Assembly (NCBI RefSeq): GCF_964204645.1
Contig: NC_134028.1
Coordinates: 9,052,001 to 9,116,000, forward strand
Length of the DNA stretch: 64,000 bases
Direction of reading: 5' to 3'
DNA from: Tubulanus polymorphus
Lineage: Eukaryota; Animalia; Nemertea
The notes below the pieces were generated by a model. That model worked only from the letters and a program-made list of their open reading frames with translations. It was not told the DNA's origin and made no database searches. The translations under genes and the position numbers were made by a program. Positions 3,463-61,043 of this stretch are shown piece after piece (within the stretch, counting starts at the first letter, position 1; each line of letters begins with the position of its first letter).

Positions 3463-4002
3463 ATGTCTATTTATTAATGGATGAGACCTGTTTTTCTGGG
3501 ATATTTTGCTTACTTTTTGGGATACATACCTCATTTATGTCTTAACAGAATGCCAAAAATCGCGGACAACAACTGAATATCCGATATATTTCCAGTTCTG
3601 TACCAATTAGATGGATTGGCAAAAAGACTCCTTAAGTCCAGTTGAATGAGAGAAAATCCTCCATTTTGTCAAATTTCTTGGATTTGAACATTGTTACCAT
3701 GCCTACGCCACCCTGATTTAGTTGTTGAGACCCCACAAGAAAAATAACTTCATTTTGTAGGCATGGTGACAATGTAAAAATTCAAGAAATTTCACAAAAT
3801 GGAGGATTTTCTCTCTCATTCAACTGGACTTAAGGAGTCTTTTTGCCAATCCATCTAATTGGTACAGAACTGGAAATATATCGGATATTCAGTTGTTGTC
3901 CGCGACTTTTGGCATTCTGTTAAGACATAAATGAGGTATGTACCCCAAAAAGTAAGCAAAATATCCAAGAAAAACAGGTCTCATCCATTAATAAATAGAC
4001 AT
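3463..4002. repeat. Long near-perfect inverted repeat (foldback), ~245-bp arms and ~50-bp spacer
   Basis: 3463-3706 is the reverse complement of 3757-4002 with only a few mismatches (atgtctatttattaatggatgagacc...catgcctac / gtaggcatg...ggtctcatccattaataaatagacat). Confidence 0.92.
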
Positions 4003-7198: not shown

Positions 7199-10100
7199 AT
7201 GGACATTGAAGTACCGAGGCTTTCTTCCATGACCGTCGTGCAGTTGAAGAATTTATGTAACTCGCACGGAATTCCAAACAGCGGTAAAAAAGTGGATATT
7301 ATCGATCGGCTAACTCGACACGAGCTACAACTAAAACAGCAAAAAGGTACGATATCGTTTAACCTTCAGCCAGATAGGCCCCTATTCGTAAAATTTCGAG
7401 GGCCCTCTAGCGAGCAACAGTGTTGTAGGCCTACGCGGAGACAGTTCAAGGGGCACTGAAAAAGTATGCTTTTTATATAGGTGATATGTCGAAATAAAGA
7501 TTTTATCTATACATGATTAATAAATGATCCTACAAAGGTTATTTTCGCTCTCTCCCTTCTCATCCACCTGCCACCTCTCCCAATTCGCCGCATTGGCATT
7601 TGTCCCTTTACTGTGTCATAGAATACTGAGAATACTAATCTAAACATTCAGTGGATTCCTCATGGACAAAAAGGAAAGGGTGCAACACATGATGATATGA
7701 CGAATAGGCAGAATAGGAAGACACCTTGGCCATGTGGCCAAATGGTTCAATTCCATAGTCAACCTTTGACTTGCAACTGTGGAACTTCCTTAAAAAATTC
7801 TTTGCTTCCTAAATTCTCTGAATTATCAATTCATGCCAGCTTCATACTAAAATAGATATAGGTTTTCCTTTAATTTTTGCTAAAACAGATGAGGACGTAG
7901 TCGAAGAGTCGGATATTCCCATGAAAACTGCGGAAACCGAAGCGGATAAATCAACTGTTGATGCAGAGGTGAAAGTTGAACCGGTTGATGGGTCGGTTAA
8001 ACCTGATGCTGAATCGGTCAATACTGAGACTGAGCCAGTCGTACCCAAATCAGAATCGACCAATGGGGAACCAGCAGTGGTTAAAGACGAAGCAATGGAT
8101 ACAACCGAATTGCCAGCAACAGCTAATGACGAGAAAAAGGCTGACGATGATGATGTTGATGATGATAAGATATTGGATGAACCGGTGAGTCTGGGAATAT
8201 GTATCTCCGTAGGTCGAGATGAGTAGCTGTATCACTGCTAGCTGCGATCATTAGATCTAGCTAATTGAGGGTTAAATGAAAACTTCTAAACACCTTTTAT
8301 GTTTATGTCTTTAGGATGAGATCAAGGCTGATCAAACAGCTGAAGAAACTCATGTAGAAGAAAATACCGAAGTGAAAGGTAATTAAACTGTGATAATCAT
8401 ACCGTCATAGTAGCAGTCGAATCAGCATCCTCCTTGGCACCTTAGTTTCATCTGCTGAAGGGTATTAATACTTAATTCTCATGAATCCTTGTAAAAGAAT
8501 TTTAACAGTGTAACATTACTGGTGAATCAGTTGAGAATCACAATATCCGTGATAAGACGATGAGTAAAATTTTCAGTGTAAAAACATTTTCAGACTGCCC
8601 GAAATATTTCTAATTTTGAAATAAACTTTTTAGATCAATTCGTTTATTGTGGGATTTTTACTCATCTTAACAGTCAATGATCACACGTTATACGTGTACA
8701 TTGATATACAATACTAACCCTATCAACGGAGTGATTTATAAGAGGGTCCAGTGTGAAATAGAAATTACTCATTGTATCTGGACAATCGCACATGTCTCCG
8801 CTGGAAAAAGTTCTGCTGAATGCTGTCCATTTTCTCGCGATATCTTGTCCAAATGTCGTAAAGCTCTTTGAATATACATACCGCAAAAAGTCTTCGAATT
8901 CTGCAATGACCGTGTTTGTGTTCTATCGTTTGTACATCAGCTGACGATAATGCAACAGATCCGGCGACCATTGTTGAAAAGAATAAAACTCCGGTGAAGT
9001 TAACGTTGGAAGAAAGAATCGCACAGCGTCTCCAGGTAGGCTACAATCTATACTCTATCCCGGTCTTAATCATTTCACGATACCGATATACCGGTAGTTG
9101 GCTCTGGTAACTGACAGCGTTAACCCAAAAGAATAGAGCACTAGGACCTGTTTTGCGCATAACGATGATACTAGAAGTGTTTGACGGATAACTTTGTGCA
9201 AGACACCATTTTGAGATTTTGATTTATGAAAAAGGAACACTTTGAACTCTGTTATACAATACTCAATGTTTTTTCTTTTTTCTATATTCCTTAGGGAAAG
9301 CTAACTGAATTGAAGACTAAACACAATACTGAGTAAGTAATTTCGATTCACATCTTTTTCTAGATGTACTTACGAGAATGGTCTGGTTTTATATAGACGC
9401 GGTTGCGATTAAATCCTTATGACAATATTTGTAAAACCTCCTTGGGCCTCCCAGTTTCATGAAAATTTTGACAAAAACATAAATTTCGGTTTAGTTCCTA
9501 ATTTCCATATCCCCAACATCTGAAACTTCTTGGCCATTTTAAGCTCACCGGCGAATTCTTTCCCAAAAACTAAGGGACTCAATCAGAAAATCTAGAAAGA
9601 AGTCAGTGAAAACTCAGGGAGTTTGATTGGGAGACTCAATATTTCGTCGTTTTGATAATTTGATAATTGAGGTCGAGATTCTAAGAGTAATCAGTCAAGA
9701 AGTTTTTAACTTGAAAAATGACGAAGTTTAATGCAATGATTATGTATTCCATTTTAGGGAGATAACCGATGCATTGTTGAAAGACTATTTGACCGACGTG
9801 ATAAAAACAGTAAGCTGTGAAAAACCTGATAAGGAGAAAACCGAGACAGAGAAGCCCGATGATGTCGAGAAACCTAGCGCCGAGATAACAGATTCGGAGA
9901 AGACTGACGCGGAAAAAACCGATGCAGAAAAACCCACTGAAGAAAGTGAAGTGAAAGAAGTTGGAGAAATGATCTGTAAACTTTGTCGATTCAAGAGCGA
10001 TTTAAATGAGAAGGAGGTAATTTATACTAGCGAAACACCGCTTGAATTAGTGGAATTTTCTGCTACAGTCGAATACACTTAATTCGGTTCGGTTTTATCC

Positions 10101-13100
10101 AGATTTTGGTCTGTTCCGGACAATATTTGTAGTCCGCATGTTCATTGATATACAAGAAAATGGCTTTTAATCTGGATTTCCTGTAAACTGGATTAATTTT
10201 GATGGTCCCAAATGATCCGAATTAGCCAGATTCTGTATATTTTTTTGTGGTACAAACTGTCAGTCATAAATTTTTACAGAAAATGGAGACCCACTGCGCC
10301 GAAGAGGATCATCAAACTAAGTATGAAGCCTACAAAAAGAAATGTTTAGGTAAAATTGTTTTTGAGGAATACATAGTCGCCCAGGTTATAGATGATAAAA
10401 AGCCACCGAGCAAAATTCATGATTTGAAAATTTTCTTTTCAGAAAACAACTGCCTATATAGAGTCTACAATGAATGTGAGGTAAGAAGAATGAAAAACTT
10501 GATTATTTGTGTGGCTTTCTGCTACTATATACGGGGCTATAGCCTGACTGAAACATTGCTAATGTTTACTTCAAGGTTTGCTGCAAAGATGTGCCATACA
10601 TTAATTTTGTGGCTCACGAAGGAAGAGTCAAGCATCTACTGGTAAGAAAGAACTGCAATAGTATTATCAAGTGTTAACAATGAATTGGAGAACTTCCTAA
10701 TAATATATTGCTCAATTCGAATTCGTTCAAATCGGATATGAAATATCTTTCTTGATACGCATAATTTAATTGATAAGATACCTTGATACATGGCCACAGT
10801 TCTCGACTAGATATGGCTTAATCTTTTAAGACTTTTGATGAATTAATTTCCAATGTTTTATCTCTTCTTAAAAAGAGTAAAATCAATTTGAACTGAAGAA
10901 CCACCGGTGCAGACTCTTAACTGTTTCTAAGAAATTGGTGTATGCTTTCACTGAAATTGAACGTACTTAATCGTTATTGTTTAACCGGAAATGTTTTATT
11001 TTCAGATAATGAGCGTTTTGTTGATTTTGTTTTCATTCCATTTCTTTAGATTACTCCCTTATATCTATCCTGCCTACTCGGTCTGCGCAACGGACTGATA
11101 TGGGAAATATCCCGGTTCTCTGAACGGAGCAACTAAATTTGCTATAACTTAATATCCACTGCTGTTCTTAATGAAGCAGAAAAAAGGCCTCAGTTCAAAG
11201 CATTTTTTTTTCTCAAATATCACATGAAATTTGTGTAGGAGAGATGTGTGTGTCTCGCCGCAATCGGCGCTAGATGAAACAACACGCCTGCGCTGGTCTT
11301 GTGCCCTTTTTACAGAGTTTACGAAGTTTTCATGAAGCATTTTTTTCTGTTAACTGTACCAGTTACACTGCACATTTTAAAGCTCGCAGTGTAATTAATG
11401 CATTGTATGAAGTTGATTTTGTCATCGGCTGAAAGTTAAATGCGCTGTATTTTCTTTTGTTTCTTTTTTAGAATAAAATGTTAACGGAAAACGGAGGTGA
11501 GTTGTTCCTAGCCGGGGCTGTGTGTATGAAGCCTTGCCGTTGCCATCAGTTGTACTGATTTATTGCGACGTTTAACTGAAGCGCGTGAAGTTCCCAATTT
11601 GGCTGGTGCGCGGCGCTTCAGTCGGTCTCGTCCTCGTCGTCATCGATGTACGATGATGATGATTGACCGTTGTGTGATTGGCAGCTAGGGAACAACTAGG
11701 AGCGGACAGTCGATGGAAGGGCATGGAGGGCATTTCGGACCCGCGCCTGAACGTATAACTACGCGATCACGGGTTTTGGTTATTGTTGTTGTTTTTTTTC
11801 TTTGTAACCATCTCCCGTGTACCGTCATCAGTATATCATGGCTCGGGTGTCCCGTTTCGTGGTTCATTCAGTCAGAAACGAGTCACGACGCAAGTCGGCG
11901 CCACGTCTATCTATTTTATGCACGTCGTTGAGACCGCAGTTTCGATCTGAAAATTCCGGTGCTCGTGGATGGCACGTTTTTTCAAGAGTGAGAAAAAAAG
12001 GAAATGCGTTTTTCTGAACGTAGTCGTTGTCGGATATGTTGAAAAGAACGAGATTTAAGTATGCTCGCTTCGAGAAAGCAAGACGCCGAGATAGATCAAA
12101 CAGAAATGAATGTTTGTTCTGCCGAATTGTTTACGGAAAAACTGTTTACGATTTATTGAGATCAAGTATCTGAAATACACGCTGTGGATATCGAACTTTT
12201 CAGGTTTTGGAGAAACGTAGTTTTCTTGAGAGAAAAAAACCGAGTTTTCAGTTGTCTATTTGGCTGTATGCCAATAATGCCTGGTACTACTACGTATATA
12301 GATGTTCGAACTGCTGGAACGCAGGCATAATTCGAAATGTGTTCGACTCAGGATTCCTCGTCTGGAGACATTTAGCTACTGCAAAAAATACTATTTTGAA
12401 GTAGCTACTAATTCAAAAGTTTGGTAATATCAACCTTACACAAAGCTGTTCTGAGTTCAGCTGCAGGACTCGACTTATGTTCGCCTCGGGATTCCTCGAC
12501 CCTAAAAGAAAACCAAACTATTCGTGGCTGAATCCCGAGTAAACTGCATATTTGTTTAAATGCAGATGAGTTCGTTTTGAGAATTTGAAAATCAGATCGT
12601 ACTGATTTTCATTTTTTTCTGTTCTTCAAAGTTTTCCAAGTGAATTATGATGAACTTTAATGTGATTGATTTGTTTCTTGTTTGAATTTAGGTCCGGACG
12701 TCGATTGATTCGTTGTGCTAACTGTTTTCGTTCTTTCTTTCTTTTTTTGCGATGCTAATTTTATTTAGTCGCTCCGATGAAACTCGATAAAGCGCAGATC
12801 CAGGACGAATACGAAGCTATAAATACCCCTGAGAATCCATTACCAGGTACGAACATTTTTTTGCTGTACAGAAATTGATCAGAGGAATTCAGCTTGAAAG
12901 AAAACGATATCTTTTTGCCAACTGCAGCTCAGAAATTGTCGCCTGAAAATCATAAGTATGGAAAAATGAATACTATATACAGTAGAACTCGCTTAATTCG
13001 GATCACCTTTTTTTGTCCGAATCAAACAAAATCTGAATAATGTGCTCTCATTTGAATAGAAATAACCTAACCCTAATAAGAGGACTGGAATTTTAGTCCA

Positions 13101-16100
13101 AAATAAGTGAAAATCCATAAAAAACTGATCCGAAATAAGCGAGTTATACTGTATTGACTATTTCTGAGACATTTTGCTACTGCGGCCCCTCCCTTCTTCG
13201 AAATACTATTTCGACGTAGCCACTAATTCGAAAGTTTAGTATGTCAACTTTGAAAAAAGCTGTTCCGAGTTTAACTGCCAACACCTATTTCTGTTAAAGG
13301 AGCACGTTGGGTAGTTGAGTTGATCAAAGGAAATGATATGGAATCGTTTTCACTGACGTACATTTGTAAAGCTTGTAACAAAGACAAGAATATGTCACCG
13401 GAAGACATGGTAGCTCACATCCAAACTGGAGAGCATAAGATAAATATTCTTGTAAGTATAATGATTCTGTCGGCTTACGTTTCAGAAAGATTCTTTTTAC
13501 AATACTTTTTCGTAACTCCCTTACATGCAGTGCTCTCAACAATGGAACTATTGAAATATGTTAAACTTTCCATGCTGATAAGCTGCCAATAGTTAACCGC
13601 CCCTGTTACTCAGGTACTGACAACCATATTTTCCCCTGACCCACTGAACTATTTTTGAAATATTATGTAACCTTTCCTTTAAAACCACGAAGGCACTGAA
13701 TTTCCCCCTAACTACACTTGGCTTTCAACCATCCGCGATTGTCATGAACAGTTTCTGAAATACTTTACCTAATCTTGATACATAGATATTCTCAAATCAT
13801 CCCTGACTGTTAGCGACATTCTGAAATACTTATACACATACGAATTGCCATCTAAATGAAAACGCCCCTCCTGTCTTCTTGATTCTTATGAGCTGTCACT
13901 TTCAATGGATCACTGCTTATTCTGGAATACGGGTACTATTGAAAATTCACTTTAACCAGAATCGTGCTACCTATTCCAGAGAATCCAGCGATTTCCAGGA
14001 TTACTACCAAATTAACTAGAATACTTCAATCGAAACCTCAACCCGCCGAAAGGTTATTTGTCTATTTCTTGTATTACAGAAAAAGATATCAATGAAAGGC
14101 TTCAGAGCTGTTGAGGCGATGGTGAATGCGTATAATAAATCGCGACCGAGTGGAACAAGTCCACTTAAACTCAGCGAAGAAACGGTGAACTTTTTCAAAA
14201 AGAATCCAGACAAATTCTACAGATCAGAGAAAATCTCGTCATTAGTTTATGCTGGTGGGAAGGAATCGCTGGAAATGGTAATTGAGAATTTATCTTAAGT
14301 TTTTGTATTAAAGAAATAAACAAATAGTAATTATTTAGTATTATTATGTTCTCATGGTTTATGGATGTGTCTTTTCAGCACCACAAGGGTGATGAAGACG
14401 AAAGAGATATGGAGACTGGAATGAAGAAGAGAAAATCTGAAGATAACAAGGATAGAAGAGGGTTAAAGAAAAACAAAAGAGGTGACCGGCCGACGACCAG
14501 TTCTTAACGAACACCCTCGCTTAAGTTTATTGTTTATCATTAGAAAAACTTCTTGGATACAGAAACCTACTGTACATCAAGATGCGCCACATCTAGTAAA
14601 ACGAAAGTTGTACATATATTATCGTATATTTCAGATTCTGGGAGAAGGGGCCGTGATCAAAACAATGCATCAGGCAGTCCATCCAAATCATCAGTTGCGG
14701 TCAAAGATGAAGATGTCGTGGCTAAGATACAAACTCTCGTTAATGAAGATACAAGCGACATAATCGGTAAGAAAATTTGAATGAGCCTAATTTTGAACAT
14801 AGGTTTCATCTGGATCAATCATTTATATCCATGTATGTACCTATAGACATGATGTCTATAATAATACTAAGATAAGTTATGTATAGAAGTCTTTAGTTTA
14901 GCGCAAATGTAGATTTCAACTGCTGTACAATGTGCATTGTTATTGGGAACATTTTATCAATTCAATCAACCTGGCTTATTAAGAATCATGTTTAGGTATT
15001 TTTGAAAATCATTGGGTCTTTCCGTACATTACGTAGGTATCCAGTATTTGATTGAGAGACAATTCCCTAATGGAAAAGTTGAATATCATTGTTCCACCTG
15101 CCGAAATGATCTGGGAACCGACCAAACAGCTACCATTAAACATTACAGCGGATTTCAACACAAAAAGAATTACCTGGTAAGGAAATTGCTGACTAGTTGC
15201 GAATGTATTTGTGGAACATTATTACTTGAACTGGTGTTCGCAGCAAAATCCATATTTGCAGGTCCATTTTCCTGAGAATCTAAATTCTATTCCTGAAAAT
15301 GATTTTCAAAGTTGGAAAAACTACCTTTAGTCGTAGAAAAGAGTAAATTACCAGTAAATGACTGATAGGATCAGTTATTTGCCAATCTGAAGCAAAATGC
15401 ATTCTTTTCTGGTCTCCTCTCCTTATCAAGAAAAAGACCTTGGAACATGCTAATTTATATGCCTTGAGTGGTGATCCGTGGGTTGAAGGATGAACAAAAA
15501 AGAATTGTTTGCAAAATTTTAGCATGATGCCTTGTATCCTACTGGAGTGGCGCGCCTATCCTTGTTAGTGTCCCCATCCCTTTTAGTGTCAGGTTCTGGT
15601 CTTTACATGGATTAAGAGTATTCATCATCATGGCTAGGAACTTCTTCATTTCTGATTTCAGAAAAGGAATAAGAACGTTGAATTCAAGAAGATCGCCGAA
15701 CTGGACCGGACGCTTCGAGAGGGCGGTAAAACAAAAGACGAAATTCAACAAGAAATCGAAAAGAAAACTCATGAACTTTGTGAAGAATATCTGACAACTG
15801 ACCGGCCAAAGATCAAGGTTGATCAACAAAATTCTTGTAAGTTGATGGCGCTTTACGTATATGCAAAAGGTTTTCTTGGAATGAGGACCCTGCGGGAACT
15901 GTGGCTAGCAAAGATCCGCTAGTGTTCAGGGGCTAGATGCTCAAAAGTTGGTTAGAATTAACTGACAGATCAAACCATTGAAACCAGTGAGTACTGGAGA
16001 TCTTTAAGGAGACAGTGGCATCATATGACGTAGGGTAAAGTTCAATCGATGTAGCGCATGGACAATGTATACCTGTACACGTTAATACTGGTACATTCGT

Positions 16101-19100
16101 GTTCATACCATTTCAATATTCAATATCCGACATCTACAAAATTGTCATTACTTACCAATGTCATCTCATTGTCGACTATTATAGTCGAATGACTGTTCGA
16201 CTCTCGTTTCACGGTCGTTGTATATTTAGTTATTGCCACCCAACCTCTTTATTGAGTGCGGCCACTGGGCTTGTCCAGTGACAATTCCGTGCATTGTCTT
16301 AGATATATATCAATATGTACCTGCATGGTCCATGATAGATTCTAGATGAGCTAGATAAATCAAAAGATACATTAGGTAGTGACTGCATTTGGCGATACTA
16401 AAGAGCTCATCGTTATGCTGGTATTTCAGTCAGAGGAAACCGCGAAAGAAATTCCGGGAACCAGCAAGCGGCGGGCGGCAGACGTCTGCCTCAGAAACGC
16501 GGTCATCAGGATAGCGGTCGTCGCGATGGTGGCGGCGGCGGCGGCGGCGGAAGTGCCAGTCAAGCTAAACGACCGCGCGATAACCAACGACGTAACAACA
16601 ACAACAACAATAACCGTAACGATGGCAGACGTGACAGGCGCAATGAACGAACCGCTGGTAACCGTGGTGGTAACTGGTCAGTATTATTTTGCAGTCGGTC
16701 CTAGTTTGATTCCGAATTCAGCGGAACCTCATGATAAAGATCTCTGATATAACGATTTATCATTTACATAGCGAACTAAGAATTATCTCTGAATATTGAA
16801 ATTGTTAAATTGTTGAGCATTTTAAACCACTACCCAGGTGGGCATGGTGTCCCTGGACCCCTAGTTCTTAACAATTAATCATTTATGCAACCGACTTAAG
16901 GAATTTGATTTCCTATATTTCAGACTTTAACGAATAAAATATTTGTCTGACTTAAGTTTATAAATCCTGCATAGAGAGATTTTGATAGGAAAACAAACTT
17001 GAAAATTCCAGATCTAGAAATTCCTTCAGACATTTTCTGACTTGCACAAGTTTTACTGTATTATTTACTTCATCAATAACTAGGTCGATACAATCCATTA
17101 CACTGTCATTGTTTTATGATTTCAGGGGTAATACTAACAGATGGGTTGCATCACGAGGCCAGACAGGTAATAATTATGGAGGTTAGTACATATATTTGTA
17201 GGGACCAACCCATCCTTGGGTATATTTGAAGGGAAAAGGCTAGGGCTCTTCTAAGCCGTCAGGTCAAAGTGCCTATATGAAGGGACAGGGCTAGGGTTAT
17301 TTTGGCTACCGAGCCAAAGGATCTATCTAAAGTTCTGTAGACACCAAGACCAGGGTGTTATGAGACGAGGCCAGAATATGGGACCATCAGGTCTTTCTCT
17401 TGGGGCCAGCTACGAGATGAGACCCGGGTCTGATATGTACTCAGGTTCTAGCTGTTAGGCAAGTGATAGTCTCTTTCTCTATGTACCAGACCTGTGACCC
17501 ACCGCGCAATAAGCCAAATGTCTATGAACTTGTGTAGGATTTTGCCATATTTAATAATCCCAGGTTCTGTTCTACGTATGTTCACTAAAAAGTCTATATC
17601 ATGTTTTTATGATGAGCAGGTTATGGAAGAGCGATGGGAGATTTTAATAACAGCCAATACGATACAATGCAGAACTGGAGAGGATTCGGAGGGTAAGTAG
17701 ACATTACCATATACAGTCGCACACAACAATGGACGAAACTCAAGAGGTTCAGAATCATAACTACTGCACATTAAACCATATGCAATTAGGATGTTTGGGA
17801 CTAGAACAATCTTGCGATTTTGAACCTTTTCGCTGAAAATTACACCTCAGAAAAAGAAAAGCGCCTGCGCTTTATATGTTGACCTATAACTGTAGACCTC
17901 AAGGCATGTATCTCTGTCTTAAGTTGATCTATTTTAGTGTCTCATATGTATACCGGTAGCTTATGCAAATTGTAAATTCAACAGGAATGTGATAGCGTGT
18001 TGTTTAATATTTTTGATGCCAACAATGGCCGCTGCCAAACTGACATCCTGGACCAGGTTTTATACATTTCTAACCGGCATTGGCTGTACCTGGAGAGGCA
18101 TACTTATGCGATCTGGAAATGTTTGAGGGCTAATTTCAATGTTTCTTATGATACCATTAATTATGAAATATTGCTACATACCTGTATTCATCTACTAATA
18201 ATTCTGTAAGCGTCTTATTCAGTCTTCAAACTAGTTTTGGGTCAATAGGTCAATAGATCCAAAAATATCAATAGTTGACAATTTTCTAACAAACTATGTT
18301 ATTTTGTTCACAGAAACACTGCAATGGGTGGTAGTGGTGGATACAATGTACATGGTAATCAGGTGAGTGATTTGTTATTCCTTTTATTGTTACCATAGTA
18401 GATTAAAACACCTTCGCTGTCATTCTCAATTCTTCTGATTGACAAGGTGGCAATTGTCCAAGTACCGGTATTTATTTCGTTTTCAAAATTATTTCAGTTT
18501 CAAATGCAGCAACAACAACAGCAACAGCAGTCGTGGCAGCAACAGCAACAACATCAATCGAGTGGTAAACTGATGAATATGGTCAACGCTATGGTATGTG
18601 TAATTCTGTTTCACAAGGTCCTCTTATGCCTCTTCATAGGTCTACTTATGAATGAATGGGCATTTAGTCTTGCATAAAACAGAACTACATAGTGTTCCCC
18701 TCGGGCCCCTCAACCTGAGATAACTATGACATATTGTCACGATAACGCAGGGCTAAATCGGTATCAGGACAATTGCCCCCCGGACAACTGCCCCCCAATT
18801 TAAATCTTTTTAATCTTAAAGTAACACAGATATTTATTTCAAATTAATTAGACTAAGTGAAGTGAACTAATTCTAGCTAATTACTCTGGGACTGCTTTAA
18901 AGTTTTTGATTGGCTAAAGTGACACTAAAACTAATTCCAATAAATCAGCCAACATTAACTAATGCACTAATAAGTGGACTTATTAAGTTTCCTTTAATTT
19001 GGCAAGTGAATTATAATTACTGCACACAACATCAGTAATTCTGAATCTTATAAATCTATATTCAATAATATACAAATGAATTTCTAAGTAAAGTATTTAG

Positions 19101-20149
19101 GTGGTGTTAATCCAAATCAAAAAGGATTTTATTCGGGGCGGGGGGGGGGGCGGCAGTTGTCCGGAGGGCAATTGTCCTAGAATCGGCTAAATCATCACTT
19201 ATTGCACCCCTGTGTTAACTTTGCCGTTAATTTACCTAATTTTACTTTGTGTTAATTTACCTAATCACTGAACCAATTGATTCCTGTAAGGAAGTTGTGT
19301 ATGGAAATTAGTTTCTTGGCATCAGCTCGTCACAGGTTTGTTTCTGTTTTTGAATTATATTCACGTTTTCATTTACAGACTAATAACATGGATGAAGATG
19401 AAGCGGCGATGATTTTACAAATATCGAGTGCAGTTTCTCAAACTGTCCTACAGGGGAAGAGAAGAGGAGAAGCCCCTCTAGATATACAGGTAACGAACGG
19501 GCCGGCCTTTAGATATGTACCGGTCGAAAAAAGGGGGATGACAGAAATTCTCTACTGAAATTAAGCCCAATGCTTACATCCGGATCATAAGATAATATAA
19601 TCCTTAGTTCTAAAAAATCTGGGGTCATTTGCTCAAAAGTTGGTTAGATTAACTAATGGATAGTTCTCATAATGGCAAATAGAATTGCATTGTCATCACA
19701 AATTTATCCGGCAGTTTTCTCCAGCAATTTTTAAGCAACTAGCCCCTTAATTTCAATGCTTCTGGGGGCAGTCACTGGATATAACAAAATGGTTCGCTGA
19801 AGTTCGTTGTAACGAGGATTTGCTGTACCACTGTAGATTGCCAAAAAACTTCCATAGCCATTTCTCGGGTAATTTATGATTTATGGTGGGATATTTGTCG
19901 GTCTGTTTGTATAAGTTTGGTTTTAAATATTTGATATTTTTTCAGAGTCAGGTACAGACCGCATTAGCCGGACAGAACCAATGGGGTAACAACAGCGGTT
20001 ACTCGGGGAACCAGGGTGCGTTCTACGGCGGAAATAACCGCGGTCAACAAGTTCAACAGCACCAACAGCAAAACATGAGGTCTGGGTACAATAACCAACA
20101 AATAGCACCACCTAGTAACAACTGTTGGAACTTCGATAGTTATAAATAA
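7199..20149 (+). CDS. Multi-exon SAP-domain, multi zinc-finger (CG7065-like / U1-matrin-type) protein with acidic, RG-rich and Q-rich regions; putative nuclear RNA-binding protein
   Basis: Exons with GT-AG junctions, some boundaries approximate: 7199-7346 (SAP: LSSMTVVQLKNLCNSHGIPNSGKKVDIIDRL), 7889-8184, 8315-8378, ~8941-9035, ~9296-9332, ~9759-10016 (CKLC), ~10281-10349, ~10443-10480, ~10576-10641, 11472-11496, 12769-12846, 13300-13451 (PLPGARWVVE..YICKAC..H..H), 14080-14277, 14379-14481, 14635-14767, ~15037-15176 (IIGIQYLIE..YHCSTC..H..H), ~15662-15836, ~16430-16676 (RG-rich), ~17126-17181, ~17620-17692, ~18314-18363, ~18499-18593 (polyQ), ~19379-19489, ~19946-20149. AATAAA at ~20896. Confidence 0.8.
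8510..8666 (+). mobile_element. Short relative of the 1077-1442 element family
   Basis: Shared leader AATATCCGTG, inverted repeat gatgagtaaaa / ttttactcatc, shared 3' ttattgtgggattt, flanking direct repeat TTAACAGT. Confidence 0.5.
10066..10235. mobile_element. Tigger-like MITE (family copy 1)
   Basis: TA|CAGTCGAATACACTTAATTCGG ... CCGAATTAGCCAGATTCTG|TA; similar to 12980-13151 and 21226-21400. Confidence 0.65.
11497..11975 (+). ncRNA. Candidate structured intronic RNA element starting at the micro-exon 5' splice site
   Basis: Several nested complementary segments: 11500-11512/11684-11697, 11513-11536 hairpin, 11539-11548/11675-11685, 11575-11584/11613-11622, 11634-11645/11651-11662, long hairpin 11737-11852, 11853-11880, GCAA tetraloop 11886-11897. 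GC-richer than the surrounding intron; no TIR or TSD. Confidence 0.6.
12980..13151. mobile_element. Tigger-like MITE (family copy 2)
   Basis: TA|CAGTAGAACTCGCTTAATTCGGATCA ... TGATCCGAAATAAGCGAGTTATACTG|TA. Confidence 0.8.
16790..16866 (+). mobile_element. 3'-end fragment of the HINE-like element
   Basis: gaatattgaaattgtta..ttgttgagcattt..gtgggcatggtgtccctggacccctagtt is nearly identical to 6415-6490. Confidence 0.8.
18760..19184. mobile_element. Mutator-like MITE
   Basis: TIRs aggacaattgcccccggacaactgcc / ggcagttgtccggagggcaattgtcct and a 9-bp target duplication GGCTAAATC (18751-18759, 19185-19193). Confidence 0.8.
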
Positions 20150-22063: not shown

Positions 22064-25000
22064 ATGTCTGGATCGTGTAAAATGTCGTCGATCGCTAAAG
22101 CTTGCGTGGATCTCACCAATGGAATTCGCGGATTACGAATCGGTTATAAATCTCTGTCTCAGGACGGCGCACAAAAAGGCTCGGAAACAACCTCGGCTAA
22201 ATGTAGCAGCAGCAGCAAACCAGGCTATAACAAAACCAAACCGAACGCCAAGATAAACGACTGGTATCTGAAGAAATTACCATACGTCAAAGATATCTGG
22301 AACGATGACCAGTTTCTCTCCAAATTCATGTATTATTTTTCGCCGCAAGAGCGCGGGCTTTTGGCGCAAGTTTGCTGTAAATGGAGGGATACGATTTATC
22401 AGATACAATATTGGGTTGGAGTTACTCCTGTGATTAAATGCCGAGACTGGAGTAAAGATGAACCGGGGCGATTAAAATTCTACCAAAGTTTACAGATGCG
22501 CGGGTTCGATTCGGTGTGTTTATTCGGTGCCACGGATGTTGACGTCAACGAATTCATAACTAATTTTCCGCCATCGCGCAAACACATTCGCTCGGCCAGC
22601 CTACGGTGTTCAAACATCACTGATTACGGGTTGGAGACGTTACTGGAGAAAATGATCTGTATTTATCGACTGGAATTATCGGGATGTAACGAAATCACCG
22701 AAGCTGGACTGTGGTCATGTCTGAACTCGAAAGTAATTTCGTTGAGTATAAGCGACTGTATTAACGTAGCAGACGACAGCGTTGGTGCGATATCGCAGCT
22801 TCTGCCGTCGTTGTACGAACTGAATCTACAAGCGTACCATGTCACCGACTCTGCGCTGGCTTTCTTCAGCTCAAAACAGAGTTACACTCTGTGCGTTCTG
22901 CGGTTACAGTCGTGCTGGGAGATCACTAATCACGGTATCGTTAATATCGTTCATTCCCTGCCCAATCTGACCGTGCTCAGTTTGGCCGGGTGCAGTAAAA
23001 TAACCGACGACGGTGTCGAGCTGATCGCTGAAAACCTAAGAAAACTGAAAAGTCTCGATTTGTCCTGGTGTCCTCGAATAACCGACAGGGCCCTTGAATA
23101 TATCGCTTGTGATTTGGGGCAACTCGAAGAACTAACGCTGGACAGGTACGTAGCCTATATATGTAAGCTTAGTAGGTTTCGCTGTAGTTTTTGTTTTCAA
23201 TCATTTGAATCGAATACCAGGGGTGGATACAGGGGTCGCACCTGCGGCACGTGCGACCCCTTGAATTTGTCAAGTGCCCTTTTCAAAAAGATTCTCATAA
23301 AAATACCGTCCGGCCCGCTACAGCGCCCGCAAAATCCGGCGTCCGGGCCTAGGAAATGAATTAGAATTCGAATTATTGTCGGAAAGGGCACGTTATATTG
23401 CAAAAAGGGCACATTTTACTGAATCAATTACCAAAAAATGGCACATATTATTGAATCAATTGCCAAAAGGCACGTTATATTGCCAAAAAGGGCATGTTTT
23501 ATTGTCAAAAAGGGCACATTTTATTGCGAAAAATGGCACGTTATATTGCCAAAAATTCAGAAAAGGGCTCCAAAAATAGTTTGAAAAATCCTGTTCAGGG
23601 CGGAATTAATCTCCAAAATGAGGGCGCATTCAATCATATTACTGAAGTGCTCTGACAGGGCACGACACAATGACTATCAGCAAGCTCAAATTGCCAAAAA
23701 AATCCTAAAGGCACATTGTATTGCCAAAAGGGCACGTTCATAAAAAATTCAGAAAAGGGCTAAAAGAATAGTTAGCTCAAAAATATCACTCAATAACTTT
23801 TATATCACATTCTAAAAGGGGCACGTTCAAATTGCAATAAATACTAAAAGTGGTATGTTATTGCCTAAAATTCAGACAATGGTATTTTTGCCATTTTGAT
23901 GCCTCAGATGCTCTGATAGCTGGGCTTCAAATTTTAAACTGATTCTAAACCCCTTGGTGGCTTCGTACCTTCGGTGCTCGCCTCGTCGTGGTAATACAAA
24001 TCCGGACAGGTGCCCTCTTGAATGAGTGCTACCCATTGAATTCGGGCCTAGATCTGCCCCTGAATACCGTACATGGAAAAACAGTTATATACGTATTAAG
24101 TAATTTAATGAGAACTCTGCAGTCGACTGTGGCAATCAGGGATTCCGCTAGTGGCAAGCAGGGATCCGCCAGGTGGCAAGCGTGAAAATTCGGACAACGA
24201 TGCCTGATTTTATCCCAAATTCCAACACGTAAAATCAGTCCATAATAATATTTATTTCGCCATGTACATCAGTATAAATGATATATAGATTATAAACAAT
24301 TTACATATATACGAGGCTGGATGCTTGGAAAGCCAATGGAGGCGCAGGCTGTGTCCCGTAGGGATCCAAGCACCCAGAAATTCAATCTCAGTGAAAATCT
24401 ATGAATCTATTAAAAATGTCGCTTTAAATTACTCGCCCAAAGATCACTCCCAGTTTATCCAATATTTCTTATTCCTGATCGAATTGTCCTATTGTTGCGC
24501 TTACCTTGGTTTCTCAAAATTTTGCTATCTAGTACATATTTCTAAACGTTTCTAATTGTCAGATCATTTTCCAGTTTCGTTCGAATTCATATTCATATCA
24601 CATGTTCGATAATTGTTTTCTTTTTTTCATTTTGAAAATTAACATAAATCTCCATTCTCTTATCAATTTCTGCATTTTCATACCAAGTTCTCTATTTCTC
24701 TAATTGCGAGTTAATTTTGCTACGTATGTGTAGTAAATTTCTCCATTCCTTTACGGTTTCTCCATTCATTCATGAATCCCTGTTTCTCAATTTCTTTAAC
24801 AATTAGAGGTGTACGCCTTGCCAATATGGAGGTGTATGTTTTGCCAATATGGTATTATTCAAGTAAATGCAAAATAGCGTTACTAGAATACTGCCGTTAC
24901 GACTATACGTACCTTGTAAATTTCACCATTATTGTCAAATCAATTCCTCCATTGTCTAAATCAGTTTGCCCATCTTGTATACAATATTATATATACTTGA

Positions 25001-29425: not shown

Positions 29426-30602
29426 CTTTTATATCATCAACATATCTCAAATATCCGACTATGGTTTCCGTCCTGTGGATAATTGAAACCACGTAATGAA
29501 GGTAGGACACATATCAGTTTCGGTCGACTCATTGATGTAACAACAAAAGTCCATACCTGGCAAAAATCTTCAACATGGTGAAGTTGGCCAGTAATAGGTA
29601 GATTACTGTCTACGTAAATCTGTAGTGAAATGGACAGTAACAACTGTAGGACAAGCCCATAGTTCACAGCGATCATGGACGACCTTGGTGGCAGACATCA
29701 ATCGTACATGCGCCAAACTACAGTCGTCAATCGTAACGTTTTATTTCGGATAGCCGCTTGACGATTCGATGCCAATGAAAGCTTATGCGCTGATATAAAT
29801 GATCAGGATCGAATATTGGAAATAAATTGACACAGTCGTTTCGAAGATTCCTGTTGGATGAAATAGATAACAGGAACGGGGTGTTTGGTTTCGTTGATGA
29901 TTAAGTTCAGTTGAAACTTCGGAACTGCCAACAAATTATCAACAGTGGGTTTTGTTCATCGACTCTGAAAAACTAAGATCAATACCAGTCTATCAGTTAT
30001 GGTAATTGCACGTCCCATATCAGCATCAGGGCGCTTACTTGTGCCCCTTTTACCCAATCAATGATGCATTTATCGATAGATTTGTGTTACGCCGAGAGGT
30101 ATCTATAGGCTTGACAGTCTTGTTTACTTTCTGGTACGCTCAGCTCCGGTAAGTCGGGTTTGCTTGAATACCGTTGTAAGTAAGTGTCGCCATAGTATAG
30201 CGTGGTAGCACCCGTAATTCTCACGGGTTCTAAAAAGGGTACCAGTGACACAGGGACCAGATGGTTTTATCATGTTCTTAAAACAACTATTATCATATCT
30301 AATTCTAATATCATATATTCACGTGAATTTACAAAGTGCCTATCTATACGTATATAGGGAAGACTGTCAAGCATCCCATCAAAATCTAGGAGCGGGTATA
30401 TCCTGACCTTGGAATCGTCATTAACTCAGCCTTGCATTTTCTCCTTGAATCAAATGAAGACATGATTTTCAAACCCATCGCAGATCGAAGATGGGTATTA
30501 TCAAGCAAGACACAGCTGTGCGGGCGTATTTCTTTGTGCCTTAAAAGTAGGAACGACATATGTTGCATATAACTGCAGTTGACATCAAACCAGGAATCGA
30601 AC

Positions 30603-31703
30603 ATGAAGCTACGTTATGTTATTTCTAACCGATGTTCGCAAATATTCGCCGTTTTGTTTTTTGTTCTACTTTGCGAATACGCGTTCGTCATATATAGCCA
30701 GTATAATGTAATATCGTCTAAAAGAACCAGACGATATTTCACGAGCGAGCGATCGCCGGAAGCACCGGCACCGTCGGATATTAAACCAATGGAACAAGAT
30801 GTTCATCGAATCGGCACCAACATGAAAGCGTACAAAGATAAACTACCCTTTAGAATCGACAACTTGCTCGATGCGGCGAAATATTTCGGTTATGGATTGA
30901 GGCGTTCGGAAATGAAAGACTTTCGAGAATTATTTTCTCTTTTCAAAAAATTGATGGACAGGCACGGCATCGAATTCATGCTAGTCGGAGGTTCACTCCT
31001 CGGCGCCGTTCGACATCACGGATTCGTCCCGTGGGATGATGACTTCGACGTGGCCGTGCCTCGCGAAAAATTCTCTCTCATTAAAAAATTATTCGATCAA
31101 AGAATTGCGTCGGCTAAGATCAAACTTGTGTCCTGGCCGTTGCGGAATATGCATTGGAAAGTTCACCTCGCAAAGAATCTTCTAATTCCAATACGAAATA
31201 AACCGGGCAAGCGATTCAGGCATTCGTGGCCGTATATCGACATATTTCCGTACGATACGCCTAACGACGTCAACATTACCTTACTATGCCTCAGAAAGTA
31301 CAAGAATATTTCACAGGCATTGATTTACCCGAAAGTTCGTGTACCGTTCGAAGGTTTCTGGATACCGGCTCCGAAGAGATGGACGTCATTTGCTGGAATA
31401 ATGTACAGGAATATTGGTCCAGACGGAAGATGCGCGGGAGGCCTTTACGACCACCGGCACGAAACCGGAAAAATGTTCATGAAAACCGTGAAATGTAAGG
31501 TTTTGAAACCGTTTTTTCCGTTCGTCGAGCGAACCTGTTTGGACGGCAAAATCGTAGAAACATTGAAAGTAGGGGAAACTGTGATACACGTGTGGTCTTA
31601 CGGTCGTTTAGATAAAACGGCGCCGGTTACTGAGATACCGTGGATACCACATTCCTGCAGCCAAAACTTCACAAACTTAACGATGCAACGTTCACCTAAC
31701 TAA
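30603..31703 (+). CDS. LicD/fukutin-related nucleotidyltransferase-fold protein (type II membrane), single coding exon
   Basis: N-terminal signal anchor (IFAVLFFVLLCEYAFVIY), LicD signature FMLVGGSLLGAVRHHGFVPWDDDFDV, WPYIDIFPY and PFEG...PAP. An acceptor (ctgcag) lies just upstream of ATG 30603. Confidence 0.9.
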   Translation: MKLRYVISNRCSQIFAVLFFVLLCEYAFVIYSQYNVISSKRTRRYFTSERSPEAPAPSDIKPMEQDVHRIGTNMKAYKDKLPFRIDNLLDAAKYFGYGLRRSEMKDFRELFSLFKKLMDRHGIEFMLVGGSLLGAVRHHGFVPWDDDFDVAVPREKFSLIKKLFDQRIASAKIKLVSWPLRNMHWKVHLAKNLLIPIRNKPGKRFRHSWPYIDIFPYDTPNDVNITLLCLRKYKNISQALIYPKVRVPFEGFWIPAPKRWTSFAGIMYRNIGPDGRCAGGLYDHRHETGKMFMKTVKCKVLKPFFPFVERTCLDGKIVETLKVGETVIHVWSYGRLDKTAPVTEIPWIPHSCSQNFTNLTMQRSPN

Positions 31704-38636: not shown

Positions 38637-40696
38637 GTTCAATCTTCCACAGATTCTGATCAAAGAATTTCGATTTTTAGTATATATAGTATTTATATAT
38701 ATATACGTTAAGAATTTCCACACGCAGTTAAACCCGGTTGTTGCTATTTTGTCGACTATTCAGTTGTCACGAATACTTTATTTCACAGCGCGGCTCCACC
38801 CAACACAACAGTCCTATATATTTGGATATAGAATACCCGGAATTACGAGACCGCTGGTATATGCCTACGCGTAAAACAAGACAAATACAGGTCTATATAC
38901 GGTCTATCGTGAAAACACGTTGACGTTGGCCGACCTGTAGAAGTGGTTAGTAATATACATAATACAAAGACTGTAAAAACCTGTATACATTATAAACATT
39001 TCGTGACATACATTAAATGGCACTGCGGTATTTCGTATACAGGAATTCAAAGTTGATCCGCCCAACAACGCAATTTTCGATTCATTCAGATACTTGATAA
39101 CCCATTCTTAAAAAATCTCATATGTTTCGATTAACATGTTTTTTTATGATAGTTATTGGGATGGAATGGACAGGAGGAAAGCAGTATGTCCCTTACAACA
39201 ATCCTGGAGCCATTGTACCAGAGTGTCAGGGGTCAACTCCGGAGAGTATACTTTACATCAAACTTCTCGGGTCCTGGATATTCTCTCATCAATCTATATG
39301 GACCTCGTCTAGAAATATCGGGATAGTGGATATCGGGACTCTCGGCCATTATATCCCGTCTTCCTTTGGCAAGTGATTCATACCACTTATTGGGCCTATG
39401 GTGAATATCAGATAGCGCTTCCGTCAGTCGTAGAGTGTCGTCGTTGTGATGCCGAGTTGTGATCTTTTTAAAGAATATTCACCGTATCATATTAATCATT
39501 CCATTGTATAAACCTTTCCCACGTAAATGAATGCTTTATATGCAATGGCCTTAATATTCATATAAACCTTCTTAATCTTCTAAAAGAAATAAGGAGTTTT
39601 TATATTCAGTTCCAAAAATGCATTAACCGTATTCTTTCTTAACGCATACATAATCCGCTTATCGAGAGCAGGCTTTTTAGCGACTTCTTTCTATTTACAT
39701 CGTGTATAAGCACAGGTTTAAGTTAGGGAAATACAACAGTTGTCATCATCTAAACATCTACTATTAGTGGTAAGACGTATCTCGCGAGGACGGAAGAAAA
39801 ACAACAACAATTCTGGTAGGTAAATCATATCAGAAATAACCATCTCGTTCTACTGTTGTGTTTTTAAACGCTAAAAGAGAATCCTCTTAATTCCTCAGCC
39901 GGAGGGAGTTGTACATCCATGGCTTTTTTTATGGCTTTCAAGATTTAAGTAACTCCGTAAAACGTTCGCTATTGCTGCTAAGTTTTTAAGATAAAAGTTA
40001 CCTCATTCGGCAGTTCATCGGAACTGGTTCTGATGAACCATTATTCTGTGGCTTTTTTGAAATAAAAAATGTTTTAAGTTTTAATATTGCTCTCGAGTCC
40101 CATTGTTACTTGGGCCTATGTGAGAAATGCATTTTACATAACCGTAGACTAAATATTCATGTGGTTTCAACGTTGCCAAAATCCATCTTACACGCATCAC
40201 AAATAGTTAAAAAAGAATGAAAACGATCCAAAAATGCAGAACAAAAAGTACGCTGATAACAAAATGGGAGTTATCAACTATCAAATGGCTAATTGTTCCA
40301 AGGTGGCTATGTGACTGAATCCTTATATTTTCCTTTCGGATACGAAATCCGTAAATTGCCTCCGTTTTTGTCTTTGTGCTGGCCATCCACTAGGAAAAAC
40401 TTTTGTAGTGTGTTTATGTGTTTACTAGTGTGGGAATAACTTAAAGCTTTGATAATATAATAGCTTTCATTTTATACCAAACACGAAGTATCAGTATATC
40501 ACGTACATTGCTGTTGGATGCATTGATTAAGAGAGAATAATTCATGGAACGGGCGCGGAAATATTAATTAACCGAGTTTAATAGGAGAATTTTCACATTA
40601 CCCCCATATTCTGAAATTTGTCTTGGCTTTTGTGGACCGTACTGTCTGTCATCCATCAAAGTATGTAACGTTTAATGAAATCATTCATTGCAGAAA

Positions 40697-41239
40697 ATGG
40701 ACAGATCGAGTAGTAGAGTAATAGAACTTCACACTACGAACGAAAATGATGATAATATCGACACGAAGAAACTGCTACGAGTTGGAGTAATAGAGATTGT
40801 CTTTGGTTTCTTGGTTTTGTTGATTGGAGTAGTAACGGCTATTCTACTGGTCAATATCATCTATCATTTATGGTTCGCTGTGTTGATCATGCTGTTTGCC
40901 GGTTTGACAGTCCATGCTCACCGCGTAAAGACTAAGAACTGGTTCACCGCTGCGATGGCCTTCGGAATTCTGAATTTCGTATTTTCGATATTCGTCATCG
41001 TTTGGGATTTCGTCTGCCTCGGCGTCGTCCACACGGCCTTTCAGAACGACACCGCCACGGCGACGAACAGGCCATTTGGTGTGGCCGCCAATGCAGTTCA
41101 GGATGACTCAATATTTGATGCACTATATTCATTAGAGATCATCTTTTGCGCGGTGATTTTCATCACAAGCTTCTTCCACATTATCAATGCAGCCGATTTG
41201 AGAAAAGAATTGGAAAAATCTGAGGGGACGGAAAATTAG
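40697..41239 (+). CDS. Intronless four-transmembrane protein, MS4A/CD20-like
   Basis: 180 aa with four hydrophobic helices; GVIEIVFGFLVLLIG and LWFAVLIMLFAG resemble the MS4A TM1/TM2 pattern; short cytosolic termini; acceptor ttgcag before the ATG. Family assignment is by pattern only. Confidence 0.7.
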   Translation: MDRSSSRVIELHTTNENDDNIDTKKLLRVGVIEIVFGFLVLLIGVVTAILLVNIIYHLWFAVLIMLFAGLTVHAHRVKTKNWFTAAMAFGILNFVFSIFVIVWDFVCLGVVHTAFQNDTATATNRPFGVAANAVQDDSIFDALYSLEIIFCAVIFITSFFHIINAADLRKELEKSEGTEN

Positions 41240-41482: not shown

Positions 41483-42364
41483 TTATTCTCTAGCCACCAG
41501 ATAACTTTCGATTTTAAGTTTATCAAAAGGAAACCCGTAAGTTTCATATGTGTGACGACGGATGACACTCTGTATTTGAGTGCGTTCTTCCTCGGCTAAT
41601 TCACTGACATCTCTTTGAGCGTAAAACGATAAAACGCAATCAGCGAGTCTCCGCATTTCTTTATCCTGTTCACAGATACAGGGTCGAGTTGGTCTCAAAG
41701 CGATGTGTAATGCAACTCCACATTCATCGGTAGAATCCAAAATGATTCGCATTTTTGCATCGATCAGAATCTTTCTCGTATCAAACGAATTCCACTGAAT
41801 GCTCGGGGCTTCCGCCTTCCACTCTCCTTTCCTTTGCAAAATACGATTGATTTCGCCGCACATCATCCCGACTGTATTTAGTACGTTAAGACATACAAAC
41901 GCGTGGCCACCATTTCGAGTAAGGCGACAGACGGCCTCGTGTATCACACGACCAGGATCGTCGAAATAATACAATACGTGGTTGAACACGATTAAATCGT
42001 AGAAGTTACTCGGTAGGAAGGAAGCCGCGGTCGTGTCCTCGACTGAGAATTTTCGATGATATACGTTGAAATCAAAACAATAGTTTGCAGCTAACAAACC
42101 AACACGTTCTTTCAATTCAGCAATCATCACACTGTTACATTCCACACAATCCACGCGCTCTAACTTTATTTCTTCGCCTACTGCGTTCATTGCATCTTCT
42201 AACGTATGACCTCGTGCCGGCCCGATCGATAGAACCCGCAGTCCATTTCCTTCCTGGTGGTAACAAGTCCGTAACGCGTCCGAAAGACGTTTCCGCATCA
42301 TTTCTCGTCCACTAAAATAAAACATGTATGCATCAAACGCGGAGGCATACGCTGCGTCGTCCAT
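41483..42364 (-). CDS. Class I SAM-dependent methyltransferase, histamine N-methyltransferase-like (copy 1), intronless
   Basis: 293 aa; motif I LRVLSIGPARG, acidic end of strand 2 (DCVECN), YDLIVFNHVLYYFDDP followed by LTRNGG; about 80% identical by eye to copies 2 and 3. Confidence 0.85.
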   Translation of the reverse strand: MDDAAYASAFDAYMFYFSGREMMRKRLSDALRTCYHQEGNGLRVLSIGPARGHTLEDAMNAVGEEIKLERVDCVECNSVMIAELKERVGLLAANYCFDFNVYHRKFSVEDTTAASFLPSNFYDLIVFNHVLYYFDDPGRVIHEAVCRLTRNGGHAFVCLNVLNTVGMMCGEINRILQRKGEWKAEAPSIQWNSFDTRKILIDAKMRIILDSTDECGVALHIALRPTRPCICEQDKEMRRLADCVLSFYAQRDVSELAEEERTQIQSVIRRHTYETYGFPFDKLKIESYLVARE

Positions 42365-42642
42365 CTTCGATAGCGAACCTCAAAACATATAGAACCCGTT
42401 CCACCCAGTGTCAAAGCATCATTTGCTATACATCGATATGGAACGCTTGCCGCGTTTCGAACGCATTTTCATCAACAATTTACTTTTATATAGTCTGTTT
42501 CACGATTCTCCTATATGTTCAACGCATTCAAGGACACAGACAATCTGAAATTAGATAACGAAGATATCGGTTAATGCAAAAACAAAATATGATGCTTTTA
42601 CAGATGCAAGCTGATTAGTTTGCCGGGTGACGCGGCACATAC

Positions 42643-49225: not shown

Positions 49226-49303
49226 CGCATCTCTGCTTGTCCACTACGATAAAACATGAAAGCGTCCAACGTGAAGGCATACGCTGCGTCGTCCATGTTC
49301 AAT
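49226..49303 (-). pseudogene. 5' fragment of a methyltransferase paralog (copy-2-like), truncated after ~23 codons
   Basis: Translates MDDAAYAFTLDAFMFYRSGQAEM. The upstream flank (49482-50070) matches the upstream regions of copies 1 and 3. Confidence 0.85.

Positions 49304-60110: not shown

Positions 60111-61043
<933 letters not shown>

What the first reader, a model, noticed from the sequence alone, without database searches (positions are those of the whole stretch)
11472..11975. Large folded RNA element sequestering the 5' splice site of a 25-nt frame-determining micro-exon: candidate autoregulatory splicing switch
Seen: directly after micro-exon 11472-11496 the intron begins GTGAGTTGTTCCTAGC. 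Positions +4 to +16 (AGTTGTTCCTAGC) pair with GCTAGGGAACAACT at 11684-11697 (one bulge). This closes a ~200-nt multibranch domain with hairpin CGGGGCT/AGCCTTG, stem GTTGCCATCA/TGATTGGCAGC, GCGACG/CGTTGT, ACTGAAGCGC/GCGCTTCAGT and TCGTCGTCATCG/CGATGATGATGA. A second domain follows: a long hairpin at 11737-11852 with a U-rich loop, CGTTTC/GAAACG, and CGAC-GCAA-GTCG (GNRA tetraloop). CGGTCTC (11623) is also complementary to GAGACCG (11930), allowing an alternative fold. Many pairs are G-U, so the fold favours the sense RNA rather than a DNA palindrome, and there is no TIR or TSD. Skipping the micro-exon gives CTG|TCG CTC CGA TGA, an immediate stop. Established: RNA-binding protein genes often autoregulate through unproductive splicing and NMD, and matrin/U1-type fingers can bind dsRNA. 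Inference: the host protein, or ADAR, may read this structure to gate U1 access. I do not recognise it as a known Rfam family.
Basis: partly seen in the sequence, partly recalled or inferred. Interest (0 to 1): 0.85.

Follow-up and report, generated by a model that had tools for sequence, protein, structure and literature searches.

The report
Folded retained intron beside a micro-exon
In a ribbon-worm gene for a SAP and zinc-finger protein, the intron after a 25-base exon starts with a stretch predicted to fold strongly and is left unspliced in part of the transcripts of one RNA sample, so it likely acts as a brake on making that protein, as retained introns do in the human FUS gene.

Summary
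The micro-exon (11472-11496) is real and spliced in. The first 200 intron bases are predicted to form a multibranch domain (z -4.6), the most stable start of the gene's 23 coding introns, closed by a helix at +4..+16. It is single-copy and has no Rfam match. New evidence points to retention, not skipping: one RNA-type run holds contigs across this whole intron and the one upstream, beside the spliced joints; two shallower runs of another sample do not show this. The host belongs to six SAP/zinc-finger paralogues found only in Tubulanus polymorphus. Best reading: a structured retained-intron brake of the FUS type (0.5). Conservation could not be tested, so function of the fold is unproven. A box C/D-like arrangement inside it is a minor rival.

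The parts
7199..20149 (+). Host gene coding span, 24 coding exons: SAP domain, acidic linker, four C-x2-C...H-x5-H zinc fingers, Gly/Asn/Gln-rich tail (P0002, named XP_074647130.1, Tubulanus polymorphus, by the source)
10642..11471 (+). Intron 9 (830 nt, second longest); covered by one contig of run X2 that runs on into intron 10; holds a strong unused acceptor-like site before 11006
11472..11496 (+). 25-nt micro-exon (residues 359-367, directly after zinc finger 2); strong acceptor and donor by a matrix built from this gene
11497..12768 (+). Intron 10 (1272 nt, longest of 23; GC 0.42, CpG o/e 1.43); covered end to end by one contig of run X2
11500..11697 (+). Domain 1: predicted multibranch fold closed by helix 11500-11512/11684-11697; arms at 11513-11536, 11538-11570, 11575-11622, 11623-11669
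11556..11558 (+). In-frame TGA met when intron 10 is retained
11647..11757 (+). Box C/D-like arrangement (RTGATGA at 11653/11656, CTGA at 11747, 6-bp terminal stem); incompatible with the closing helix; unproven
11737..11852 (+). Long interrupted hairpin with a 20-nt U-rich terminal loop (z -3.1)
12692..12768 (+). 3' end of intron 10: AG-free zone of 77 nt (widest of 23), displaced pyrimidine tract, middling acceptor

Best explanation
Intron 10 of this SAP/zinc-finger gene opens with a domain predicted to fold strongly, is left unspliced in part of the transcripts of one RNA sample, and likely works as a cis-acting retained-intron brake on the gene's protein output. Shown: the micro-exon is included; contigs exist for fully spliced, intron-10-retained and intron-9+10-retained forms; retention puts a stop at 11556. 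Predicted: the domain folds once about 200 bases are made and pairs +4..+16 of the intron. Inferred: the folded 5' end together with the unusual 3' end (77-nt AG-free zone) slows removal of intron 10, more likely at a step after first U1 binding (the helix covers +4..+6 and the bases behind) or by serving as a protein platform than by shutting U1 out; intron 9 stalls with it because a 25-nt exon is defined poorly when its downstream intron is held. Inferred and untested: the retained RNA is held in the nucleus or lost to NMD, and the host zinc-finger protein or its paralogues read the helices and close a feedback loop.
For: Run X2 (spliced GT..AG joints, so RNA-type): contig 11471-12796 spans intron 10 (depth figure 76.8), contig 10612-11500 spans intron 9 into intron 10 (32.3), a 34-nt contig ends in 11471-11500 (31), against 163.8 and 132.9 on the two spliced joints; 163.8-31=132.8, so the paths add up; introns 7 and 8 are joined across and the loose ends at 10278 and 12847 continue into the next exons. 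First 200 nt of intron 10: -79.5 kcal/mol against -57.7 for the next of 23. Introns 10 and 9 are the two longest; widest AG-free zone. Single copy: 146 of 155 genomic reads are 99%+ alike at an 80% threshold, depth like the flanks. Host has SAP and four H-x5-H fingers; weak links to matrin/U1-type and AKAP95/ZNF326 fingers. FUS shows the same layout (PMC12285722).
Against: No orthologous or paralogous DNA could be had, so no conservation or covariation. Retention is seen in 1 of 3 runs that hold the spliced mRNA; X5 and X6 (one other sample, depth 27.9 and 7.7) have no intron cover. Contig depths are not quantitative and the library type of X2 is not on record; only 6 of 23 introns lay in that stretch, 2 of them in part. 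The U1-site opening cost is ordinary; as a free duplex the closing helix is not unusual (the donor's best partner within 2.1 kb lies elsewhere, and 5 of 27 control windows do as well). z is as good on the reverse strand. The retention may owe everything to the 3' end.
Confidence: 0.5

Rival explanations
1. The fold is incidental. A GC/CpG-rich, partly microsatellite-like stretch happens to fold, and intron 10 is slow to splice because of its length and its 3' end (distal branch region, wide AG-free zone).
For: 20 other of 69 + strand clusters in the window reach z <= -4.49; reverse strand folds as well by z; few G-U pairs; donor accessibility ordinary; AG-free zone widest of 23.
Against: The domain starts at +4 of the very intron that is retained, is 22 kcal/mol more stable than any other intron start of the gene and is third by energy among + strand clusters, behind two single fold-backs.
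Confidence: 0.25
2. The intron hosts a small non-coding RNA, most likely an orphan box C/D RNA at 11647-11757 whose protein-bound form excludes the closing helix, so that snoRNP assembly frees the donor (SNORD86/NOP56- or SNORD2/EIF4A2-like); or a stable intron-derived RNA whose 5' end is protected by the closing helix.
For: Box C, box D 90 nt apart and a 6-bp terminal stem; 4 such loci on both strands of 64 kb, this the only one with 6 bp; 14 of 3000 shuffles of the element give a stem of 4 or more, 0 of 3000 of 6; forcing it drops pairing of +6..+8 to 0.09.
Against: Found after the fact among several RNA classes tried; box C lies in a (GAT)n run that dinucleotide shuffles do not model; the C/D form costs 21.6 kcal/mol in the precursor; no Rfam match on this strand there even at E 10; no clear C'/D' boxes by eye; guide target not tested.
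Confidence: 0.12
3. One reading: the closing helix blocks U1, the micro-exon is skipped, and the frameshifted mRNA goes to NMD under control of the host protein or ADAR.
For: Skipping gives a stop after three codons; helix covers +4..+16 with high probability; such hairpins cause skipping in MAPT and SMN2 (PMC9977717).
Against: GU and +3 stay free; opening cost ranks 5-16 of 23; the helix cannot form until ~200 nt are made; both micro-exon splice sites are strong; the unproductive form actually seen is retention.
Confidence: 0.08
4. Relic of a small fold-back transposon (MITE): the closing helix is its terminal inverted repeat.
For: The two strands are a 13-of-14 inverted repeat around a 198-bp unit with inner palindromes; most pairs are Watson-Crick; the window holds other fold-back elements.
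Against: No target-site duplication by inspection; no second copy in the window or among genomic reads at 80% likeness.
Confidence: 0.05

Closest known systems
FUS introns 6 and 7 (detained-intron autoregulation; PMC12285722: abstract, introduction and passages read)
   Same: Two long adjacent introns around one exon retained together; the downstream intron is the more structured; wide AG exclusion zone mentioned; skipping-NMD was proposed first, retention later.
   Different: FUS introns are conserved and FUS binding, nuclear holding and m6A control are shown; here none of that is tested, the host has no RRM, intron 10 is also retained alone, and the fold starts at +4 of the donor.
Donor-occluding structures of MAPT exon 10 and SMN2 exon 7 (PMC9977717: passages read)
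   Same: A helix overlaps the 5' splice site; in SMN2 a long-distance stem takes part.
   Different: Those promote skipping by blocking U1; here only the 3' edge of the U1 site is paired, the cost of opening it is ordinary, and the helix closes a 200-nt multibranch domain.
Plant structured motifs DEAD, 45ABC, GRP7&8, PTB2 (PMC12218528: passages read)
   Same: Structured intronic RNA overlapping splice sites in genes of RNA-binding proteins, tied to unproductive isoforms.
   Different: Those are one or two hairpins found across 100+ species with alternative sites or cassette exons; this is larger, animal, known from one species, and tied to retention.
SNORD86 in NOP56 and SNORD2 in EIF4A2 (PMC7038934 passages; PMC10324135 abstract)
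   Same: An intronic C/D-type element with two conformations that gate splice signals of its host.
   Different: The C/D arrangement here is unproven, matches no family, and the host is not a snoRNP protein.
AKAP95/AKAP8L/ZNF326 and matrin/U1-type zinc-finger proteins (host side)
   Same: Nearest named clusters by language-model features, 0.85-0.90; finger 4 aligns weakly with TUT4 and TUT1 fingers; a review says ZNF326 prefers paired motifs.
   Different: No sequence-level orthologue outside Tubulanus was found; no Pfam finger family passes its cut-off; N-terminal SAP; six paralogues. A link to fly CG7065/TEsup-2 is recalled from a motif resemblance and untested.

Membership tests
FUS-type detained-intron control | Specific retention of introns flanking one exon while neighbours are spliced | tested here: met
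   Run X2; not seen in X5/X6 of another sample
FUS-type detained-intron control | Retained intron is more structured than others | tested here: met
   Prediction only: most stable first 200 nt of 23 introns
FUS-type detained-intron control | Weak or unusual splice signals | tested here: inconclusive
   Donor strong, acceptor middling, AG-free zone widest of 23, by a crude 22-site matrix
FUS-type detained-intron control | Intron conserved between species | not testable with these tools
   No eukaryote genome held; no orthologue found
FUS-type detained-intron control | Nuclear holding, NMD resistance, binding by the host protein | not testable with these tools
   Needs fractionated RNA, NMD inhibition, CLIP
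U1-occluding donor structure (MAPT/SMN2 type) | Helix overlaps the U1-binding bases | tested here: met
   +4..+6 paired, -3..+3 not part of the helix
U1-occluding donor structure (MAPT/SMN2 type) | U1 site markedly harder to open than ordinary donors | tested here: not met
   Rank 13; 5, 14, 5, 16 of 23 in four settings
U1-occluding donor structure (MAPT/SMN2 type) | Exon skipping occurs | tested here: inconclusive
   No skip joint in 3 runs with spliced mRNA, but contigs drop rare and small variants
Box C/D snoRNA | Box C, box D and terminal stem at 70-130 nt | tested here: met
Box C/D snoRNA | Match to a described family | tested here: inconclusive
   No Rfam match; orphan families would be missed
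Box C/D snoRNA | Antisense element to rRNA or snRNA | not tested
   No rRNA or snRNA of this animal was at hand
Box C/D snoRNA | Accumulates as a discrete small RNA | not testable with these tools
   No raw RNA reads were listed
Intron-encoded telomerase RNA (nematode type, PMC12921731) | Template longer than one telomere repeat | tested here: not met
   Only one 7-nt match to the usual animal repeat (recalled), at 12499, outside the folded part
MITE | Terminal inverted repeats | tested here: inconclusive
   13-of-14 inverted repeat at 11500/11697
MITE | Target-site duplication and multiple copies | tested here: not met
   No duplication by inspection; single-copy depth at 80% likeness

The most novel reading that the evidence does not exclude
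Intron 10 carries a new class of large multibranch RNA switch, shared by the matching introns of a lineage-specific family of six SAP/zinc-finger genes and read by their own zinc fingers, that toggles between a donor-pairing fold and an open (possibly C/D k-turn) fold and so meters the whole family by intron detention.
Probability: 0.1. Interest if true: 0.75.

Novelty: new member of a known kind. Interest (0 to 1): 0.4.

Why it matters
Structured retained introns that meter RNA-binding proteins are described for mammals and plants; my one search that included Lophotrochozoa listed 6 papers, none containing that word. A nemertean case with a discrete 200-nt domain at the donor would extend the mechanism and give a compact test system. 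The five paralogues keep the micro-exon peptide, so their introns offer a ready test of covariation inside one genome. Without conservation data the value stays moderate.

Tried and rejected
Rfam, whole window at gathering score and 11300-12200 at E 10: 0 and 4 weak matches, none in the element on +. ARAGORN: none. Own genome not held. Exact 16-base donor pattern in metagenome contigs: 60 loci, none extending past 22 nt, no protein match: chance. Protein searches: only P0002; HMMER found 5 paralogues and 12 SAP-only matches among 18. Run X3 first looked like intron-rich RNA but has no spliced joint and both loose ends follow GATC sites with a shared linker: taken as a restriction-type DNA library and dropped as RNA evidence. 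No listed holder is on record as RNA. X8 and X9 do not cover the gene. Lack of X2 cover over the laid parts of introns 6 and 11, lack of a skip joint and lack of A-to-G differences are absences in contigs and prove little. Polymorphism test uninformative: 4 differences in 2721 nt in X7, none in 11497-12354. A 13-of-14 pairing between intron 9 (11125-11138) and the intron-10 acceptor is matched in 3 of 27 control windows: not significant. Single-sequence fold useless (pLDDT 39); Foldseek on the aligned model gave nothing at E 0.001; VIA-align mostly SAP. One column (hairpin-2 core) had a wrong register and is ignored; 5 of 24 donors were mis-numbered and were redone. Earlier findings: 5 look-ups, nothing. 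Supplements were not read.

Full report
Setting. The window is animal DNA. An exon of the host gene is identical to P0002, which the source names LOC141903086 of Tubulanus polymorphus, a palaeonemertean. P0002 maps onto 24 coding exons from 7199 to 20149 and includes the 25-nt exon 11472-11496. The protein has a SAP domain and four C-x2-C...H-x5-H fingers; that this spacing marks matrin/U1-type fingers is recalled, and is weakly backed by a profile match to a TUT4 chain (E 0.017), a structural match of residues 590-640 to TUT1 (Z 4.6, rmsd 1.3, 45 residues) and language-model neighbours of the zf-met and AKAP95 kind. The micro-exon peptide is kept in the paralogues. No orthologue from another species turned up.

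The fold. 11497-11700 folds at -82.0 kcal/mol, z -4.6, better than all 150 shuffles; the hairpin at 11730-11855 has z -3.1. The closing helix 11500-11512/11684-11697 holds in most contexts (22 of 24 at 37 C, 19 of 24 at 15 C with P at least 0.8), with a rival local hairpin at 11667/11716 reaching P 0.2 at 37 C and 0.67 at 15 C in some. Among the first 200 nt of the 23 coding introns this one is by far the most stable (-79.5 against -57.7). A local scan of the window found 69 + strand clusters at z -3.5 or lower, 20 others as low as this one, though only two fold-backs are more stable. G-U pairs are 7 of 68, against 2 of 59 on the reverse strand, a weak strand signal.

Does it block U1? The helix starts at +4, so the exon end, GU and +3 are outside it. 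Opening -3..+6 costs 3.4 kcal/mol, rank 13 of 23 donors; in four other settings the rank is 5, 14, 5 and 16. The helix cannot form before about 200 bases are transcribed. Both micro-exon sites score as strong in a matrix made from this gene. A U1 gate is therefore weakly supported.

What the RNA shows. Runs X5 and X6 (one sample) and X2 (another) carry GT..AG joints with the micro-exon included. X2 also has one contig over all of intron 10 (11471-12796, depth figure 76.8), one over intron 9 running on to 11500 (32.3) and a 34-nt contig ending in 11471-11500 (31), which I read as exon 9 spliced to the micro-exon with intron 10 kept; the spliced joints have 163.8 and 132.9, and 163.8 minus 31 gives 132.8. 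No path with intron 9 kept and intron 10 spliced is listed (3 records were not shown). Introns 7 and 8 are joined across, and the loose ends at 10278 and 12847 go on into the neighbouring exons. Taken at face value about a third of molecules keep intron 10, but the tool warns that contig depth is a poor measure, the library type is not on record, and X5/X6 show no intron cover. Retention brings a stop at 11556; skipping would bring one after three codons but no skip joint is listed, which contigs could hide. Intron 10 is the longest intron, intron 9 the second, and intron 10 has the widest AG-free zone (77 nt against 3-60).

Copy number. Of 155 genomic reads of X7 laid at 80% likeness, 146 are 99% or more alike, and depth over the element is like the downstream flank; a blastn of 11400-12400 against the window finds no second copy of the folded part. 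It is not a young repeat family.

Known RNA classes. Rfam gives nothing. There is no telomerase template (anatomy from passages of PMC12921731). A box C/D-like arrangement lies at 11647-11757: the only one of 4 such loci in the window with a 6-bp stem, rare in shuffles (14 and 0 of 3000 for stems of 4 and 6), but found after the fact, seated in a (GAT)n run and 21.6 kcal/mol uphill in the precursor. It would exclude the closing helix, as in the SNORD86 switch (passages of PMC7038934; abstract of PMC10324135), so it stays as a minor rival.

Mechanism. The best-fitting picture is that of FUS, where two long introns around one exon are retained, the downstream one is the more structured, and retention rather than skipping was later proposed as the feedback route (PMC12285722: abstract, introduction, passages). 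Here inclusion and retention are shown in contigs, the fold is predicted, and the causal link, the fate of the retained RNA and feedback by the host are inferred.

Literature seen. Search listings only; none of the listed titles concerns this gene or element. Passages: PMC9977717, PMC12218528, bioRxiv 10.64898/2025.12.16.694471 (says CG7065/TEsup-2 has U1-like fingers and is confined to arthropods, so my recalled resemblance to it is a lead only). No supplements were read.

Verdict. A real, single-copy, strongly folded intron start in an intron that is retained in one sample; a new instance of a known kind of control, with the decisive test, conservation, still open. Interest 0.4.

Noticed in passing
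P0007-P0011: Five paralogues of the host, SAP plus four or five zinc fingers, 24-29% identical, all from the same species and the same longest contig, with no relative found elsewhere: a fast-evolving, lineage-expanded nuclear family.
   Followed up: partly
window 11006 (intron 9): Acceptor-like site as strong as the best real ones, with no donor above threshold in that intron: possible decoy 3' splice site.
   Followed up: partly
window 11125-11138 and 12763-12776: 13-of-14 complementarity between intron 9 and the intron-10 acceptor; not significant against control windows.
   Followed up: yes
window 3623-3843 and 49285-49499: Near-perfect fold-backs (z -21.6 and -12.4), probably MITE-like elements.
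   Followed up: no
window 41483-42379, 43786-44682, 55497-56393 (- strand): Three similar ~298-aa open frames that look like SAM-dependent methyltransferases (recalled motif).
   Followed up: no
window 22064-23146 (+): F-box/leucine-rich-repeat protein gene just downstream of the host.
   Followed up: partly
window 30573-31703 (+) and 51131-52267 (-): Long single-exon frames resembling a LicD/fukutin-type protein and a GPCR (recalled motifs).
   Followed up: no
window 53200-54768 (+): Two consecutive frames resembling a LINE reverse transcriptase, interrupted by a stop, behind a copy of the membrane-protein exon seen at 40679-41239.
   Followed up: no
window 60040-61190: About 1.1 kb GA-rich microsatellite.
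   Followed up: no
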